DNA from: an uncultured Spirochaetales bacterium
Lineage (GTDB): Bacteria; Spirochaetota; Spirochaetia; SPDA01; CAYXSD01
Direction of reading: 5' to 3'
Length of the DNA: 60,983 bases
Assembly (NCBI GenBank): GCA_964466335.1
Contig: CAYXSD010000003.1
Location: 37,450 to 98,432 of the forward strand
Shown here: in pieces, positions 3,001 through 52,101 of the stretch
Position numbering within the stretch: position 1 is the first letter of the stretch
How the letters are laid out: each line of letters starts with the position of its first letter
Program-made: the position numbers and the translations under genes
Notes under the pieces: model-generated
Database searches by the model: none
The model's input: only the letters and a program-made list of their open reading frames with translations
What the model was told of the DNA's origin: nothing

Positions 3001-3615
3001 CTCACCTTTTCCAGATCGCTCCGGAGAAACGCCTCCAGTATAGAGGATACCTACCGCTGGGGGACTGAGCTGCGAACTTCGGCGGTTAATCTCTTTGGCA
3101 GCCAGGGGGCCTATTCAATAACCCCAGTCTTCGATTCAGATGAGTACAGCACATCCATTGGGCTCGATGTTACTTCAACGGACACTTTCTTCTTCAAAGA
3201 AGTTGAGTTGATCCTTCAACACTATCTTGCCTTCTACAAGGGGAATACCCATGAACTGAGTGTGGAAAATCGATTCAGCCAAACCTGGGCATCCCACATA
3301 TACGCGACAAATAGAACCGACATTGGTTTTCTTTGGTCCATTTTTCCTGAGGCCCCCATTGTATTTCCCATTTTCAAAAAAATCTTGAACAAGGGATACA
3401 TACGAAATGGTGAGTACCTCGATTGGGTCCTGGAACCCTACACGGAGAATAAAGACAAATATGGTTTCAGCCTTCTCCTGCGGCACGAGACCGGACTTGT
3501 TTTTCCTGATATTGGGGATATGACCGCGCATATTTCCGTAGGTTTCGACCGCATGGTAGAAGAGCTCTCCATTCTTGGGCTTCAAATAGGCATTTCCGCA
3601 CGTTTCCAATTTTAA
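1..3615 (+). CDS. SprA/Sov-like large outer-membrane protein, 5'-truncated (frame +1 is open from base 1)
   Basis: No stop in frame from position 1. Ordered motifs resemble T9SS SprA: IPGSVSVKRNG..DFEVNYESGQVSFL, RGKLIY, RPGPY, EWAG..LTFYW, LHIGAVSEDLDGDG, SEDFNDNG, WKRVTID, EQQVL, SQYRKLSMYLR. The C-terminus is beta-rich and ends ARFQF. The coding call is secure; the product call is from remembered motifs. Confidence 0.6.
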   Translation, partial: REIKNRYPFVETKPELYGPYRETRESRVEDLLTIRVLVPVEGYSLEPNLIPGSVSVKRNGRKATDFEVNYESGQVSFLGYIHPNDRIEISYQTVGTSKGGDIVFGFGNRFHLGPNLFLDAAAGLRWNILSGTYSTEERQHPGSVLATAALDYSTESLKARLDTGLSISTPDTTGRFRVLGMESQGLKVPISDSSIFPASPSSITGAIFARNVRGKLIYKDYRSYSPLGGATLNAYTWDPPDDQIYPYQTGSRPGPYTALPDTSIIDGEVMVLEYDLSANEWAGAFLPVIPGEEGVDLSGFDSLTFYWKSLDETGTVDHHLHIGAVSEDLDGDGNIDRENSVYSRGFDFNDSANGAVLLVGGGPDLTGNRSLESEDFNDNGILDGDEDDFTVSDAIPVTPEEQWKRVTIDFSEADKEKLISSRGLRLYIEETAGASASGRLIVSGFTFQGSPMVLDETPTGSIEETQDLIVIREISEGFSLNQPPELLTSVYPEVQENFHPQDTEQQVLEVNWDSSGGTTNTLLLIKGYTSPVPASQYRKLSMYLRVPTLSNPGATTMTVSLTGSDGEGIKAAFTPPQFDDWRKLTINLDSREVTLGGETLSGSTVTYTGTKGTLSLFSIRMDGSNSGTIYIDEVHCEDSLVNLGFGAAGSVEYKRPGKLLYTPELEILSDIRIFQEASFSTEDFAAGYLDQGGPLTTRSYTELEGILLYTRLRMELGILYAEPDLFLSGGHSLTIPAFPFPVTFTDSYSQRDDPGGITMSRSNLIGINIPGGNIVEFTQESSLLTSTLNQAWELKYSTDWEVPFSISLIGSLGTANKNWPLLAENYFANWILGYSLFAPVKIDKFRERRGNTLYSLSLTTLPVGASLSFDLGYSVAGEQEREHSSKGAIDVSIPLQFLQETPAAWSLTPGYRRSFSYTRAAEAPGTFGDDFYLLYSGFGVQEYIYNTWPMAELFSQRTEDLFISSSQGYEAAHFTPSFYMDYNRRYGSNLYDLFLPSTVSLTFSRSLRRNASSIEDTYRWGTELRTSAVNLFGSQGAYSITPVFDSDEYSTSIGLDVTSTDTFFFKEVELILQHYLAFYKGNTHELSVENRFSQTWASHIYATNRTDIGFLWSIFPEAPIVFPIFKKILNKGYIRNGEYLDWVLEPYTENKDKYGFSLLLRHETGLVFPDIGDMTAHISVGFDRMVEELSILGLQIGISARFQF

Positions 3616-5193: not shown

Positions 5194-7455
5194 ATGAAAA
5201 GAATGGTAACGTACATACTGTGCCTCAGTCTCTTCGTGTCGGCACTTGGTTTTGCTCAAACAAGTGAGGCCCCCTACGTGGTATTGGAATACTATACCAA
5301 TGAAAATGAACTTAGAATTCTAACCTCCCAAGGTGAAGAACTTTCTCCCTTTTTTGGAATGGATATCGCTCCCGGAGACACCATAATAACCGGCGCCTCC
5401 CTTGCGGAGCTTCGTTTGGAACCGAACGGTACCATCATAAAGATCTCTCGAAACACGGAATTCTTAATTGAAACCCTCCAGGGTCCCGAGTACAACGTAA
5501 ACGCCTTTTCCATGCTTAGTGGTAAAATCAGGGCCATTGCCGCGAAGAGCGGAGGAAAAGATAATTACTCCTTTGTTACACCCAGTGCGGTGTGCGGTGT
5601 GCGGGGGACAGATGTTTGTCTCTATGCCGAACCGGAAGAGATAGATACCGCCGCTGTTTTAGAGGGAGAGGTTAATTTCATCAATGTTAATACCGGAGAA
5701 AGTCTAACCCTTACAGAGAGAACAAAGGCGAATGTCTTCGCCGATACCTTTTCAGCTCAACCTCTTTCGGAAGAGGAAATGCTCACCCTCTTCAGCGATT
5801 TGGAATTCGAACGTCTTAAACCCAGCAATGTGCCGGGCAATGAAAACAGGGAAGACCCCATAAAAGAGCTGAGAGAGAAAAAGGAGCAGGAGACACTCAC
5901 CGAGGAAAAACAGAAAGAAGAAGAAGAGGATGATGATAATGATGAACAGCCGAAAGCTGAACAACCTGAACTAACTAAAGAGGATACCGAAAAAGAAGAA
6001 AAACCCAAAGAACCGGATTTTTTCGATAATCTCCTTAAATTTCTCGGATTTGAAATCGGAACCCTTACCGTTGACAACAGCACCTACGCCAAAGCGGTAG
6101 TACAACCCAAATTCGAAATTGGCGATTTCCGATTAGGGCTCTATCTGCCGGTGATCTATCAGGACGATTTATTCTCTCCCCAGGACTGGTACCATCCCAA
6201 GGGTAACAACGAGTGGTCCTTCGGTACGGATCAATCAGGCACCCTGAATATTCTCTATGATATTGCGGGAGACCTCTTGCTCAAAATCAAATACATGGAA
6301 TACGGAGAGCAGCGGGACCCGTTCTTTTTTACATTGGGGAATATATCGAGTATTACCATCGGACATGGCATTATTATGCGTAACTACGGAAATGATTCCG
6401 ATTTTCCAGCAGTAAGAAGAATCGGGTTAAACCTTGGGGTTACCACTTCTTTCTTCGGCTTTGAAGGCGTCGTAAACGATTTTGCCGACTTAGAGATTTT
6501 CGGCGGGCGGATCTTTTTTAAACCAATTGGAGACAGTTTTCCTATGGCCATTGGTGTTTCTTCCGTACTCGATCTCTATCCTTCAATGGGAATACCCCGA
6601 AACGAAGGCGAGACCCTTTCCACCCTATACGGGGACCCCATCTTCATTAACGGCGGACTGGATATCGATTTTCCCATTCTGGAAAGCGATACTTTCAGTC
6701 TCGTTTTTTTCGGTGATATAGCCGCTATGCTGCCCTACTTCAGAGAAAATGAGAGTGCCTTTAACATTCGCCGGGGATTTGCCTTAGAAGCCCTCTTTCC
6801 AGGAGGGGTTGTAAATCTGTCCAAACTGAGAAACTACGGATGGTCCGCGGGGGCCTTCGGGAATATCTTTATTGTTGATTGGAGACTGGAGTACCGAAAC
6901 TATCGCGGGACTTTTAAGCCTTCCTTCTTCAATAACACCTATTCCAGGGTTCGAGGACAGTATGTTTTGAACACCGCGGCATATCTTGCTGATCCGGACG
7001 CTTCAGAGTGGGACAAACAGACTATGGGTATATATGGAGAAGCAGGGTTTACCATCGGCGATATATTCACTTTCACCGGCGGATACTTTTGGCCTTGGCA
7101 GGTAGGAAGCTCCGGGGTTGAAGCATTAGAGGAAGATTATTTTCTCCTTAAGCTTCGACTCCATCCCGATGTAATTCCTGTTGTCGGTATCCACGGCTCT
7201 ATCTCTTACGAAAGAACAGGATTTATACCTACCATTTTGCAGTCCGAGGGCAGTGAGGACCTGCTCCTTTTCGATGCCTATACCGTTGTAAAGGGTGAAG
7301 TGGTCATACCTTTAGGACCCAGCTTGGACCTTGCCACAGTTATTGCCACAAACGCTGTATATAACAGCGATGGAACTGTAAGGCGGGACCCGAACAACCC
7401 GACGATGATAAAAATCGCTCCCTCGGTTACTATTGAAACCCGAGTGAGTTTTTAA
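5194..7455 (+). CDS. FecR-domain protein fused to a predicted beta-barrel
   Basis: Signal peptide; FecR-like segment (GDTIITG..AELRL..GTIIKIS.NT, TPSAVCGVRGT, VLEGEV); acidic/charged linker; barrel domain ending ETRVSF. RBS AAGGAGG. Confidence 0.7.
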   Translation: MKRMVTYILCLSLFVSALGFAQTSEAPYVVLEYYTNENELRILTSQGEELSPFFGMDIAPGDTIITGASLAELRLEPNGTIIKISRNTEFLIETLQGPEYNVNAFSMLSGKIRAIAAKSGGKDNYSFVTPSAVCGVRGTDVCLYAEPEEIDTAAVLEGEVNFINVNTGESLTLTERTKANVFADTFSAQPLSEEEMLTLFSDLEFERLKPSNVPGNENREDPIKELREKKEQETLTEEKQKEEEEDDDNDEQPKAEQPELTKEDTEKEEKPKEPDFFDNLLKFLGFEIGTLTVDNSTYAKAVVQPKFEIGDFRLGLYLPVIYQDDLFSPQDWYHPKGNNEWSFGTDQSGTLNILYDIAGDLLLKIKYMEYGEQRDPFFFTLGNISSITIGHGIIMRNYGNDSDFPAVRRIGLNLGVTTSFFGFEGVVNDFADLEIFGGRIFFKPIGDSFPMAIGVSSVLDLYPSMGIPRNEGETLSTLYGDPIFINGGLDIDFPILESDTFSLVFFGDIAAMLPYFRENESAFNIRRGFALEALFPGGVVNLSKLRNYGWSAGAFGNIFIVDWRLEYRNYRGTFKPSFFNNTYSRVRGQYVLNTAAYLADPDASEWDKQTMGIYGEAGFTIGDIFTFTGGYFWPWQVGSSGVEALEEDYFLLKLRLHPDVIPVVGIHGSISYERTGFIPTILQSEGSEDLLLFDAYTVVKGEVVIPLGPSLDLATVIATNAVYNSDGTVRRDPNNPTMIKIAPSVTIETRVSF

Positions 7456-11977: not shown

Positions 11978-12014
11978 CTCATTTCATTTTATTTAATTTT
12001 CGTCAGCTGCTTTA

Positions 12015-12053
12015 GATTTTATATTTCATTATAGCATAATGAAATATAAAATC
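12015..12053. repeat. Perfect 18-bp inverted repeat in a divergent promoter region
   Basis: GATTTTATATTTCATTAT-AGC-ATAATGAAATATAAAATC. Contains an extended -10 (TGcTATAAT) on the minus strand. Confidence 0.9.
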
Positions 12054-12088
12054 GACCCACCATTGACCCTCCGAAAAATGGTAATTTT
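12027..12088 (+). repeat. Dispersed ~62-bp intergenic element, copy 1
   Basis: CATTATAGCATAATGAAATATAAAATCGACCC-N15-AAAAATGGTAATTTT. Matches 42295-42357 on the minus strand. Confidence 0.8.
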
Positions 12089-12113
12089 AAGAGAGGTTCC
12101 GTGACTTTTGGGT

Positions 12114-12142
12114 TTGACAGTCCTGGAAAAACAAATTAATCT
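12114..12142 (+). promoter_or_regulatory. sigma70-like promoter
   Basis: TTGACA-17 bp-TAATCT, 17 nt upstream of ATG 12160. Confidence 0.55.
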
Positions 12143-12159
12143 ACCTATTGGAGATTAAT

Positions 12160-22681: not shown

Positions 22682-22714
22682 AAAAAAAGACCCCCGGATT
22701 TTTATCTCCGAGGG
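22682..22714 (-). terminator. Intrinsic terminator of the ABC-GntR-DUF2807 operon
   Basis: Minus strand CCCTCGGA-loop-TCCGGGGG (one G-U pair) followed by TCTTTTTTT. Confidence 0.7.
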
Positions 22715-22738
22715 CCAGGATGCGTATTATTCTTACTA

Positions 22739-22780
22739 TATTGAGGCTCTGAAAAATAGCATTTTGAAAGAGCCTCAATA
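22739..22780. repeat. Palindromic REP/MITE-like element, family A copy 1
   Basis: TATTGAGGCTCT...AGAGCCTCAATA. 37 of 38 nt are identical to 35586-35623 in inverted orientation. Confidence 0.8.
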
Positions 22781-35134: not shown

Positions 35135-35152
35135 ATTTTGAAAGAGCCTCAA
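35135..35152. repeat. Family A repeat, half copy
   Basis: ATTTTGAAAGAGCCTCAA is identical to 22761-22778. Confidence 0.7.
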
Positions 35153-35585: not shown

Positions 35586-35623
35586 GAGGCTCTTTCAAAA
35601 TGCTAGTTTTCAGAGCCTCAATA
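35586..35623. repeat. Family A repeat, copy 2
   Basis: GAGGCTCTTTCAAAATGCTAGTTTTCAGAGCCTCAATA, 26 nt past the ilvD stop. Confidence 0.8.
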
Positions 35624-35649
35624 TTATTTCTTCTTCGTTATATGAATAA

Positions 35650-39036: not shown

Positions 39037-39053
39037 GGTCTCTCCTTCACAGC

Positions 39054-39096
39054 AATTCGTAAAGGTGAAGTCTAAAAGACTTCACCTTTACGAATT
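39054..39096. repeat. Perfect 20-bp hairpin just upstream of the glyA RBS
   Basis: AATTCGTAAAGGTGAAGTCT-AAA-AGACTTCACCTTTACGAATT. Confidence 0.9.
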
Positions 39097-39143
39097 TGCC
39101 TCCAATCCTTTGAATTACAAACAAATTCAAGGAAATTGAAGGT

Positions 39144-39188
39144 CAGTTCTCAATCTGGAAGGCCTTAGGTCTTTCAGATTGAGAACTG
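39144..39188 (+). repeat. 22-bp hairpin, repeat family B copy 1
   Basis: CAGTTCTCAATCTGGAAGGCCT-T-AGGTCTTTCAGATTGAGAACTG. Both mismatches are G-U pairs on the plus strand. Confidence 0.85.
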
Positions 39189-39250
39189 CTGTCTCCTTCA
39201 GACATACTGTATATCATTTTATGGGGGACCGCTTCAAGATAGCCTAAATT

Positions 39251-42246: not shown

Positions 42247-42294
42247 ATTAGATTTTACGGTTCTTTTTCTTCCTTTCTTTAATGAGGTTCTTGC

Positions 42295-42357
42295 AAAATT
42301 ACCTTTTTTAATAACCTCTATCGCGGGTCGATTTTTCTATTTCATTATACTATAATG
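42295..42357 (-). repeat. Dispersed ~62-bp intergenic element, copy 2
   Basis: The minus strand reads CATTATAGTATAATGAAATAGAAAAATCGACCC-N15-AAAAAAGGTAATTTT. Confidence 0.8.
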
Positions 42358-42547
42358 TATTAGAGAAATCTAAAGATAGAACCGCATTCAAATCACTAAT
42401 TCTTATATTGGTTGATTTGAGAGCAGCTGTACTATTTATACCATTTTAGGGGGTACGCTAGATCATCTTCTTAGATATTGCGAATTCTTACGTTTTGCGA
42501 TATATTCTATTCAGAGATGTGTGTAATGCTAATGAGGCAGAAAGTGA

Positions 42548-42575
42548 TCAATTGTTCCCTGCTATCTTCCGATAA
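42548..42575 (+). promoter_or_regulatory. Candidate sigma28 (FliA) promoter
   Basis: TCAA-N16-TCCGATAA, 36 nt upstream of ATG 42612. Confidence 0.5.
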
Positions 42576-42611
42576 AGACACTAGTGAAAAGTACTTTTTC
42601 AGGAGCAAATA

Positions 42612-50904: not shown

Positions 50905-52101
50905 ATGAAGGTGCGAAGTTTTTCCATTTATGTTTTTCTTAGTATTATAGTAATCATTGCAATTTTACTCTCGTCTTTTATGCGATACTATAATAAAAAG
51001 AGCAATGTTGAAAAAATTGCTCGTGAATCCTTTGAATCGGTAAAAAATACTCTTTCTTCAGCTTATTTAGCATCTGGAAGTTTTGAGGCCCCTTTTTTCA
51101 GCGAAGAAGTTAAACAGGTTTTTAAGAAAACCAATAATTTGCGTGTTGTAGCCCTGTATACAGAAAAGAGCGGTATTGAATATCTTTACGCAATTACGCC
51201 GCGTTATTTAGTGGCGGTACCGGATCCTTAGACTGAATGGACCCCCTGGAGCTCCTATAGACTCCCAACCTTAATGGATAACCTTTTTTTTTTGTCTCTT
51301 TCTCTTCCTAATGGTGAATCTTATAGAATTGATGGTGTGTATACCCTTATTTCGCAAACAGCTCTTTTTCAGATTATTCGCGACAGCTTCCTGCTATTAA
51401 TTCTTTTTTTACTATTCTCACTCTCATTCAACCTTCTTTTTTTAAGATCTAAGCGGGCACTTCCTGACCTAGAGCGCCATGAAAAAGATAGTAAAGAGTC
51501 ATCTGACCTCCAGAGCCACACTCCTGCCCTTGGGTCCACAGCTGAAGGCTTTTCAAAAATAACCTCATCTTCTATTTCAGATTCGAGTATTGGTCAATGT
51601 GAGAACAAAGACAGGCCGGAAATGAAAGGGGGGTTGTCTTATATAAAACAGCGACTCAGCTTTGAACTCGAACGCGCTGCCTCTTTCGATCAAGATCTTA
51701 CCTTGGTAGTTTTGGAATGTGTGGAAGACTGCGGAACAAAAGAGATCTACAATAACATCGGCAGCACTTTGGCTGAAACCATTAGCTTTCAGGATTTAAT
51801 TTTCGAATGTGGAAAAAAGGGATTTGCCATTATTATCCCAAATGTTGATTTAGATACTACTATAAAGGACCTTGAACTTTTTCAGAAAAAAATTACTGAA
51901 AAGAACGATAAACCCAGCAACCTGCGCTTTGGTGTAAGTTCAAGAAACGGGCGACTCATTCGTTCAGATCTTCTCCTGAAAGAAAGTCTCCTGGCGCTAA
52001 GAAAGGCCAAAAATGAGAAAGGACCTCATATAGTGGGTTTCAGAAGTGATCCGGAAAAATACAGAAACTATATTACGAACCACGAAACTGCCAAAGGTTA
52101 A
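50905..52101 (+). pseudogene. Two-TM membrane protein with degenerate GGDEF domain, interrupted by one in-frame TAG at 51229-51231
   Basis: ORFs 50905-51231 and 51274-52101 are in the same frame with 14 sense codons between them. The joined product has TM-periplasmic-TM-GGDEF-like architecture. Confidence 0.65.

What the first reader, a model, noticed from the sequence alone, without database searches (positions are those of the whole stretch)
12027..12088. A ~62-bp element shared by two divergent promoter regions 30 kb apart
Seen: the copy at 12027-12088 (+) and the copy at 42295-42357 (-) match at 30 of 33 positions over CATTATAGYATAATGAAATA..AAAATCGACCC. An identical 15-nt spacer length follows, then a 14 of 15 match to AAAAAWGGTAATTTT. 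Both copies point toward the downstream gene (the TM-TPR-Mrr operon and ftsB-like). The conserved blocks follow a -10-like hexamer and could pair (AAAAT..ACC with GGT..ATTTT) around a variable loop. Inference: an undescribed cis-regulatory leader RNA or promoter module that may co-regulate a division gene and the TPR-Mrr operon, or a decayed MITE.
Basis: partly seen in the sequence, partly recalled or inferred. Interest (0 to 1): 0.7.

Follow-up and report, generated by a model that had tools for sequence, protein, structure and literature searches.

The report
Interspersed palindromic repeat in a spirochaete
The two matching 62-bp stretches are real, but they are two old copies of a high-copy hairpin-forming repeat that litters the intergenic DNA of this salt-mat spirochaete, not a private switch shared by two operons.

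Summary
In detail: 12027-12088 (+) and 42295-42357 (-) match as described, far beyond chance. The element is larger and more structured than reported. Stems covary between copies.

It is not private to two promoters. HP2 units occur alone at 22738-22780 and 35586-35624, with a half unit at 35135-35152. In source-type mat metagenomes the HP2 core has roughly 350-640 times single-copy contig depth, and the HP1-HP2 composite 10-25 times. Composite copies also occur in two other MAGs.

Related spirochaetes lack the element at the TPR-Mrr locus, and one relative lacks it at ftsB. The conserved TPR-Mrr core promoter lies downstream of copy A. A conserved, predicted divergent-promoter block lies upstream of copy B.

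Best reading: a new family of REP/BIME-like (MITE-like) mosaic palindromic repeats in uncultured Spirochaetia. HP1 could still supply outward promoters. The mobilisation mechanism is unknown.

The parts
12016..12110 (+). Copy A of the composite repeat (HP1 + tag + HP2 + 11-nt tail), bounded as an insertion
   Evidence: A low-depth contig in run X5 joins 12015 directly to 12111 (CTTTAG|GGTTTGACAG). Relatives L095, L097 and L098 have ..TAG|RTTTGACAG with no element.
12013..12055 (.). HP1 of copy A: AT-rich palindrome TAGATT..CATTAT-AGC-ATAATG..AATCGA. It carries nATAAT -10-like hexamers on both strands, each 16 nt from a T[A/C]GATT hexamer.
   Evidence: The promoter scan lists TTTAGA-18-CATAAT at 12011-12040.
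12048..12058 (+). Tag AAAATCGACCC. It overlaps the right foot of HP1 and lies at a fixed 8 nt before the HP2 stem.
   Evidence: The consensus of flanks 5' of many HP2 units reads ..AAAATCGACACA.
12065..12099 (+). HP2 of copy A (decayed): lower stem GACCCTC/GAGGTTC, apex AAAAAT-GGTA-ATTTT
   Evidence: CM R1 scores 65 bits.
42284..42466 (-). Copy B of the composite, long form (HP0 remnant + HP1 + tag + HP2), bounded by an indel polymorphism
   Evidence: A relative in run X12 skips 42284-42466 and has 35 unrelated nt instead. Relatives in X4 and X6 (L005 type) skip 42380-42466. Alignment A2.
42328..42372 (.). HP1 of copy B (22-1-22 arms, 18 of 22 paired), with TATAAT on both strands
42284..42318 (-). 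HP2 of copy B: GAGGTT...AACCTC around AAAAAAGGTAATTTT
   Evidence: 72 bits. L009 has the compensatory pair GAAGTT/AACTTC.
42377..42431 (-). HP0 remnant of copy B (decayed third hairpin). It corresponds to GGTAATTTCAAAAAT-cgagc-ATTTTTGAAATTACC in L056.
   Evidence: (I10, 74% complementary), the sequence printed, and the absence of this segment from L005.
22738..22780 (+). Solo HP2-type palindromic unit of the master type, ATATTGAGGCTCTGAAAAATAGCATTTTGAAAGAGCCTCAATA. It sits between the stop codon of the DUF2807 gene (- strand) and what reads as a G+C-rich hairpin plus T-run.
   Evidence: CM R1 gives 36.5 bits, E 1e-6. Summed contig depth is 5678-6459 against 10.1 in the flanks in X2.
35586..35624 (-). 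Second solo HP2 unit, 38 of 39 identical to the unit at 22738. It lies 3' of the dihydroxy-acid dehydratase gene.
35135..35152 (+). Half HP2 unit (3' arm ATTTTGAAAGAGCCTCAA), just after the stop codon of the peptidase U32 gene
12114..12142 (+). Not part of the repeat: the native TPR-Mrr core promoter-like block TTGACA-N17-TAATCT, followed by GGAG and ATG. It is conserved in four genera and lies downstream of copy A.

Best explanation
The two matches are two members of a multi-copy, interspersed, mosaic palindromic repeat family. The family is REP/BIME-like, and MITE-like in the loose sense. Its host lineage is uncultured Spirochaetia from hypersaline microbial mats.

The basic unit is HP2, an imperfect palindrome of about 43 nt (GAGGYTC..AAAAT-loop-ATTTT..GARCCTC). 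It is often preceded at a fixed distance by the tag AAAATCGAC. It occurs alone or fused to a second palindromic unit, HP1 (TAGATT..ATTAT-NNN-ATAAT..AATCGA). In long forms a third unit, HP0, is also present. Copies A and B are old composite copies whose HP2 has partly decayed.

Shown:
- The repeat is multi-copy.
- Its parts occur in different combinations.
- It is present or absent at orthologous sites in relatives.
- The conserved native promoter-like blocks lie outside it.
- The hairpin stems covary.

Inferred:
- Units spread as non-autonomous DNA, probably through single-strand hairpin intermediates handled by a trans-acting enzyme (RAYT or IS200/IS605-like). I put this at about 0.4; nothing here tests it.
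- Quasi-palindrome template switching keeps the arms complementary.
- Effects on neighbouring genes are side effects: RNA hairpins in 5' or 3' UTRs, and possibly weak outward promoters from HP1.
For: Copy number:
- Summed contig depth over the composite is 109-262 against 5.8-11 in the flanks. For copy A it is 191-201 against 8 in run X6. For copy B it is 97-112 against 9.9.
- Short unitigs of 64-113 nt have 14-16 times single-copy depth.
- Several long contigs of single-copy depth carry the module in other contexts.
- The solo HP2 unit reaches 5678-6459 against 10 in X2, 2083-2422 against 4.4-6.7 in X1 and 3112-3391 against 7.9 in X6. It lies on 61-89 contigs per run.

Other copies:
- Solo HP2 units in the window were found by CM R1 and blastn.
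- Composite copies were found in Spirochaeta sp. MAG locus L056 and in MAG contig L037.

Insertion status:
- The TPR|TPR-Mrr intergenic region is 68-118 nt without the element in L095, L097 and L098.
- An X5 contig gives an empty site at locus A.
- A relative in X12 lacks the 183-nt element at ftsB, and the L005 type lacks the HP0 part.
- At the DHO_dh/DUF2807 pair the intergenic region is 258 nt here, against 46-70 nt in relatives.

Structure:
- HP1 has 90% of cells paired against 32-46% when partners are slid. Five pairs change on both sides and none on one side only. An A x G mismatch is invariant.
- HP2 has 83% of cells paired against 35-54% slid, with five double changes.
- L005 and L056 fold into stems of 17-19 bp with at most one mismatch, z-scores -11.8 and -12.0.

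Databases and context:
- No Rfam family matches.
- A second, unrelated palindromic repeat of about 143 nt at 39050-39192 has about 50 times single-copy depth. This genome therefore hosts several such families.
Against: - No transposase or RAYT was seen. Pfam labels cover only part of the window, and the rest of the genome is unavailable.
- No consistent target-site duplication was found. Only an imperfect CTTTAG/CTTTTG pair flanks copy A.
- Neither GTAG nor CGTC lies at the ends of HP2.
- Metagenome depth can pool several related species, so per-genome copy numbers are rough.
- Copies A and B are old: they are present at the same loci in relatives about 7% diverged.
- HP2 at ftsB kept its stem through a compensatory change in L009. 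That could mean exaptation rather than junk.
- All three composite copies with known context lie in divergent 5' intergenic regions, with sigma70-like geometry on both strands.
Confidence: 0.8

Rival explanations
1. Mobile or exapted bidirectional promoter cassette. HP1 supplies two back-to-back sigma70 promoters (T[A/C]GATT-N16/17-nATAAT on each strand). HP2, and HP0 on the other side, become 5'-terminal stem-loops of the outward transcripts. This is compatible with the repeat-family reading; it adds a host-level function.
For: - The -35-like to -10-like spacing of 16-17 nt is kept in A, B, L005 and L056 on both strands, despite 1-nt indels that are mirrored on both arms.
- The promoter scan lists TTTAGA-18-CATAAT in A and TTTAGA-18-AATAAT in L056.
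- In L056 the element fills 143 of the 224 intergenic nt between divergent maf and a membrane-protein gene, so at least one promoter probably lies inside it.
- All three composites with known context are in divergent regions, whereas solo HP2 units are in 3' regions.
- Loose ends show AAAATCGACCC+HP2 behind a different promoter-like sequence (CTTGTCA-N17-TAAGGT) at the same distance.
Against: - The -35-like hexamers match TTGACA at only 3 of 6 positions.
- At A the conserved core promoter is downstream of the element.
- At B a conserved predicted divergent-promoter block lies upstream. Metatranscriptome contigs of relatives for the 963-aa gene start at 42521, not at HP1.
- There are no TSS data.
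- Promoter function would not require the spacer arms to stay complementary.
Confidence: 0.2
2. Dedicated cis-regulatory leader RNA (riboswitch-like or protein-binding) that defines a regulon including ftsB and the TPR-Mrr operon.
For: - The hairpins have conserved loops (GGTA; ATAGYAT) and covarying stems.
- The copies are in sense orientation and 20-115 nt upstream of start codons at A, B and L056.
- The HP2 stem is preserved by a compensatory change in L009.
Against: - There are hundreds of HP2 units, including units in 3' regions and in antisense orientation.
- The element is absent upstream of TPR-Mrr orthologues.
- At A it lies upstream of the conserved promoter, so it is probably not in that mRNA.
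- Downstream genes are functionally unrelated.
- Identical 93-113-nt unitigs that include non-transcribed flanks indicate DNA-level copying.
- No Rfam family matches.
Confidence: 0.05
3. Operator for a dimeric transcription factor. On this reading HP1 is a protein-binding palindrome overlapping the -10 hexamer.
For: - There is perfect dyad symmetry with conserved outer (TAGATT/AATCGA) and inner (ATTAT/ATAAT) blocks.
- The half-sites loosely resemble Fur-box hexamers. This comparison is from memory and was not tested.
Against: - The nine positions between the conserved blocks differ between copies yet remain complementary. Protein binding does not require that.
- The palindrome always travels with the tag and HP2.
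- Its copy number and insertion polymorphism fit a repeat.
Confidence: 0.03

Closest known systems
REP / BIME elements of enterobacteria and REPINs of Pseudomonas (RAYT-associated)
   Same: Both are short imperfect palindromes of 35-45 nt. Both are extragenic, with hundreds of copies and near-identical master copies alongside decayed relics. Different palindromic units combine into mosaics. They often sit between a stop codon and a terminator. The stems stay complementary.
   Different: No GTAG or CTAC lies at the ends of HP2. The tag is AAAATCGAC, 8 nt from the stem. The stems are AT-rich. No RAYT gene is known for this lineage. HP1 and HP2 are unrelated in sequence, not inverted copies of one unit.
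GTAG- and CGTC-tagged stem-loop repeat super-families (Di Nocera et al. 2013, PMC3733652)
   Same: Both are tagged palindromic repeats that form dimers and arrays. That paper reports CGTC repeats in Spirochaetes and notes that untagged or other families probably exist.
   Different: The tag here is neither GTAG nor CGTC, and it is separated from the stem. Some long-form copies have CTAC just upstream of CTTTAG (GGCCCTAC|CTTTAG). Its meaning is unresolved.
Correia elements (CREE) of Neisseria and ERIC repeats
   Same: Both are non-autonomous palindromic repeats of about 100-180 nt. They insert near genes, can carry outward promoters, and add RNA hairpins to UTRs.
   Different: Correia elements have 26-bp terminal inverted repeats, a TA duplication and promoters at their ends. 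Here there are two or three tandem hairpins with putative promoters at the centre, and no clear TSD.
Putative mobile promoters (Matus-Garcia, Nijveen and van Passel 2012; PMC3575422)
   Same: Both are highly similar sequences of at least 50 nt upstream of unrelated genes in one genome.
   Different: That class is operational, not mechanistic. Here the shared sequence is resolved into repeat units that also occur away from promoters.
IS200/IS605-derived palindrome-associated elements (PATEs)
   Same: Both have tandem subterminal hairpins. There is possible site-specific insertion 3' of a short motif: every copy follows CTTTAG, and empty sites read ..TAG|.
   Different: The two hairpins here are dissimilar. 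The motif abuts the foot of the hairpin. No TnpA was found. Orientation is mixed, two copies on + and two on -.

Membership tests
REP (repetitive extragenic palindrome) | Short (about 20-45 nt) imperfect palindrome | tested here: met
   HP2 is 43 nt with an internal loop. HP1 is 43-45 nt with an invariant A x G mismatch.
REP (repetitive extragenic palindrome) | High copy number, confined to extragenic DNA | tested here: met
   Summed contig depth is roughly 350-640 times single copy for HP2 and 10-25 times for the composite. All window copies are intergenic. The per-genome number is uncertain because the data are metagenomic.
REP (repetitive extragenic palindrome) | Conserved terminal tetranucleotide GTAG (or CGTC) at one end | tested here: not met
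   None of GTAG, CTAC, CGTC or GACG lies at either end of the HP2 units at 22738, 35586, A, B, L005, L056 or L037. CTAC precedes CTTTAG in some long-form copies only.
REP (repetitive extragenic palindrome) | Cognate RAYT (IS200/IS605-like Y1 transposase) gene in the genome, flanked by REPs | not testable with these tools
   Only about 67 kb of this genome is available. No transposase appears among the Pfam-labelled genes.
MITE | Terminal inverted repeats | tested here: inconclusive
   Each unit is itself a palindrome. The composite as a whole has only loose left-right symmetry: HP0 and HP2 share CAAAAT/ATTTTG apices.
MITE | Target-site duplication flanking each copy | tested here: inconclusive
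   Copy A is flanked by CTTTAG...CTTTTG, a 5 of 6 match. Nothing comparable flanks B, L056 or the solo units.
MITE | Presence/absence polymorphism at orthologous sites | tested here: met
   Locus A has empty sites in X5, L095, L097 and L098. Locus B is empty in a relative in X12 and partly deleted in the L005 type.
Cis-regulatory leader RNA / riboswitch | Located in the 5' UTR of the regulated genes, in sense orientation, with conserved genomic context across species | tested here: not met
   Units also lie in 3' regions and on either strand. The element is absent upstream of TPR-Mrr orthologues, and copy A is upstream of the conserved core promoter.
Cis-regulatory leader RNA / riboswitch | Match to a curated RNA family | tested here: not met
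   Rfam 15 gives nothing at gathering thresholds over the whole window, and only chance-level hits around both copies.
Bidirectional sigma70 promoter | -35/-10 hexamers with 16-18 nt spacing on both strands | tested here: inconclusive
   The geometry T[A/C]GATT-N16/17-nATAAT is conserved, and scan hits occur in A and L056. The -35 matches only 3-4 of 6 positions, and nothing is listed for B.
Bidirectional sigma70 promoter | Mapped transcription start sites | not testable with these tools
   Only sparse metatranscriptome contigs exist, and they are uninformative over the element.

The most novel reading that the evidence does not exclude
The HP1-tag-HP2 composite is a self-propagating bidirectional promoter cassette. 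Its central cruciform-prone palindrome fires outward on both strands and gives each transcript a 5' stem-loop. A hairpin-recognising enzyme that uses a non-GTAG signal (CTTTAG| and/or AAAATCGAC) spreads it. Some copies, such as the one at ftsB, have been kept by selection as the working promoter or leader.
Probability: 0.15. Interest if true: 0.6.

Novelty: new member of a known kind. Interest (0 to 1): 0.3.

Why it matters
For annotation, similar pairs of "shared promoter elements" in this lineage should be read as repeat insertions, not regulons. These repeats also break metagenome assemblies: contigs end at or begin with them.

For biology, this is a well-resolved example of a mosaic, non-GTAG palindromic repeat system in Spirochaetia, a phylum where such elements are barely described. 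Several features make it a usable model for how hairpin repeats spread and get co-opted:
- Three unit types are combined in different ways.
- The stems covary, and one mismatch is invariant.
- The left junction is always CTTTAG.
- Composites and solo units occupy different genomic niches.

Tried and rejected
- A symmetric-pattern scan of metagenome contigs returned only chance hits. The source metagenomes are not in that collection, so no census came from it.
- The genome-contig scan returned mostly coding-sequence chance hits. Only L056 and L037 were true members, and the window's own genome is not among the representatives.
- Three viral-contig scans found no family member. The plasmid search found nothing. 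There is therefore no phage or plasmid link.
- Rfam gave nothing.
- I considered sigma54 (the GG-N7-GC spacing is wrong) and sigma28, and dif/Xer, attC and LexA or Fur-type operators. I rejected them from the sequence and from memory of their consensus sequences; none was formally tested.
- I rejected intrinsic terminators because neither HP1 nor HP2 is followed by a T-run in the composites.
- Metatranscriptome contigs were too sparse to place a TSS.
- I looked for a transposase in Pfam-labelled window genes and found none.

Full report
**Observation**

The 20-mer CATTATAGYATAATGAAATA occurs only at these two loci, where 0.01 matches are expected by chance. It matches on both strands there because it is palindromic. 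AAAATCGACCC and AAAAAWGGTAATTTT follow with an identical 15-nt spacer. Similarity also extends upstream (CTTTAGATT), so the shared region is about 90 nt.

**Anatomy**

- HP1. Each copy contains a large AT-rich palindrome. In A the arms 12015-12032 and 12036-12053 are 100% complementary. Over 12013-12055 the arms match at 19 of 21 positions, in B at 18 of 22, and in the orthologue L005 at 20 of 22. Across A, B, L005 and L056, 90% of cells pair, against 32-46% when partners are slid. Five pairs change on both sides and none on one side only. One A x G mismatch is invariant. A 1-nt indel on one arm is mirrored on the other.
- HP2. Downstream of the tag AAAATCGACCC lies a second hairpin. In L005 and L056 both hairpins have stems of 17-19 bp with at most one mismatch (-42.5 and -45.2 kcal/mol, z about -12). 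In A and B, HP2 is decayed. HP2 has 83% of cells paired against 35-54% slid, with five double changes.
- HP0. Long-form copies (B, L056, and the abundant variant seen in unitigs) carry a third hairpin left of CTTTAG.

**It is a repeat family**

I laid Logan contigs of the source-type microbial-mat runs on the loci.
- The composite has summed depth 109-262 against 5.8-11 in the flanks at A. It has 191-201 against 8 in a relative-dominated run, and 97-112 against 9.9 at B.
- Short unitigs of 64-113 nt have 14-16 times single-copy depth. Several long contigs of single-copy depth carry the module in other contexts.
- A covariance model of tag+HP2 and blastn found further HP2 units in the window. 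These are 22738-22780, 35586-35624 (38 of 39 identical to the former), and a half unit at 35135-35152.
- The solo unit has depth 5678-6459 against 10 in X2, 2083-2422 against 4.4-6.7 in X1 and 3112-3391 against 7.9 in X6, on 61-89 contigs per run. The consensus of its 5' flanks often reads AAAATCGACACA.
- Composite copies also occur in Spirochaeta sp. MAG locus L056, between divergent maf and a membrane-protein gene. Another lies at the start of MAG contig L037, upstream of DUF433/HicB-like genes.
- The unit's k-mers are held by mat, microbialite and salt-lake metagenomes only.
- The organism is an uncultured member of Spirochaetia, judged from the names of its best protein hits.

**Both window copies are insertions beside native promoters**

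- Locus A. The TPR|TPR-Mrr gene pair is syntenic in other genera. Their intergenic regions are 68-118 nt in L095, L097 and L098, and none of the relatives' regions, including the longer one in L099, contains the element. All share a block TTTGACA-N17-TAATCT..GGAG..ATG. In the window that block is at 12114-12142, downstream of copy A. The empty sites read ..TAG|RTTTGACAG. A low-depth contig in X5 joins 12015 to 12111, which bounds copy A as 12016-12110. Closer relatives (X4, X6, X12) do have the element at A.
- Locus B. The relatives differ. The L005 type lacks 42380-42466. L009 has a decayed HP1 but keeps HP2, with a compensatory GAAGTT/AACTTC pair. A relative in X12 lacks 42284-42466 altogether.
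- Upstream of B lies a 150-nt block (42460-42611) that is almost invariant in all relatives. It holds predicted overlapping divergent promoters. Metatranscriptome contigs of relatives for the 963-aa gene begin at 42521.
- The DHO_dh/DUF2807 intergenic region that holds the solo unit is 258 nt here, against 46-70 nt in relatives.

**Interpretation**

They fit a REP/BIME-like, MITE-like family of mosaic palindromic units.

The spread mechanism is not shown. I infer a DNA-level, hairpin-mediated process, for four reasons:
- Identical unitigs include non-transcribed flanks.
- The stems stay complementary, which is also expected from quasi-palindrome template switching.
- Every composite follows CTTTAG.
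- Empty sites end in TAG.

Against simple filing: HP2 has no GTAG or CGTC tag, no RAYT is known for this lineage, and no consistent TSD was found.

**What remains open**

HP1 has a conserved T[A/C]GATT-N16/17-nATAAT geometry on both strands. All three composites with known context lie in divergent 5' regions, whereas solo HP2 units lie in 3' regions. In L056 the element nearly fills the intergenic region. An outward bidirectional promoter function, possibly exapted at ftsB, is therefore plausible at about 0.2, but there are no TSS data.

**Comparison and novelty**

The closest known kinds are these:
- REP/BIME and REPIN elements.
- The tagged stem-loop families of Di Nocera et al. (PMC3733652), who note that further families probably exist.
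- Correia and ERIC elements.
- The operational class of putative mobile promoters (PMC3575422).

I found no description of this family in Rfam or in three full-text searches. I rate it a new member of a known kind. Interest is modest. The main value is correct annotation, plus a tidy example of a non-GTAG mosaic hairpin repeat in Spirochaetia.

Noticed in passing
window 39050-39192: A second, unrelated interspersed repeat of about 143 nt lies here. It contains one perfect palindrome (39054-39096, 20-nt arms, 100% complementary) and one near-perfect palindrome (39144-39188, 22-nt arms, 91%). Summed contig depth is 500-700 against 10-12 in the flanks, on 70-78 contigs per run. Several contigs begin or end in it.
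   Followed up: partly
window 42460-42611: This 150-nt intergenic block is almost invariant in relatives whose FtsB is only 82-89% identical. It holds predicted overlapping divergent promoters (+ TTGCGA-17-TATATT at 42478-42506; - TTAGCA-17-TAGAAT at 42532-42504). It probably also forms the 5' UTR of the 963-aa ORF of unknown function. Metatranscriptome contigs of relatives start at 42521. No Rfam family matches.
   Followed up: partly
window 12065-12099 versus HP2 of other copies: In copy A the lower stem of HP2 has its arms swapped (GACCCTC...GAGGTTC instead of GAGGTTC...GAACCTC), while the apex keeps its orientation. A relative in run X12 has the usual orientation at the same locus. This amounts to three adjacent compensatory changes or one templated event.
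   Followed up: partly
window 12114-12159 and L095, L098, L099: The TPR-Mrr core promoter-like block TTGACA-N17-TAATCT is conserved across genera. It sits so close to GGAG and ATG that the predicted leader would be only about 11 nt. AGATTA on the opposite strand could serve the divergent TPR gene.
   Followed up: no
L021 6201-6237: An unrelated 50% GC metagenome contig carries a near-perfect 37-bp palindrome (16 of 17 arm pairs), GATTTGTACGTCATTAT-GCT-ATAATGATGTACAAATC. On its complementary strand its central 15 nt read the same as HP1 of copy A (CATTATAGCATAATG). It may be an operator or promoter, or a chance hit of the pattern.
   Followed up: no
L037 1-560: A composite copy (tag + HP2) lies at the very start of a MAG contig labelled Bacteroidales, directly upstream of DUF433-like and HicB-like small genes. 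This suggests either mis-binning or a wider host range for the repeat.
   Followed up: no
window about 51084-51240 and window right end: Independent assemblies break at these places. JGI contig Ga0153773_1000303 ends near 51084. Ga0153773_1011801 spans about 51240 to the window end.
   Followed up: no
window 22686-22722 (- strand): By eye, a G+C-rich hairpin plus T-run (CCCTCGGA..TCCGGGGG then TCTTTTTTT) follows the solo HP2 unit. If it is an intrinsic terminator, the repeat lies inside the 3' UTR of the DUF2807 gene. No scan was run on this region.
   Followed up: no
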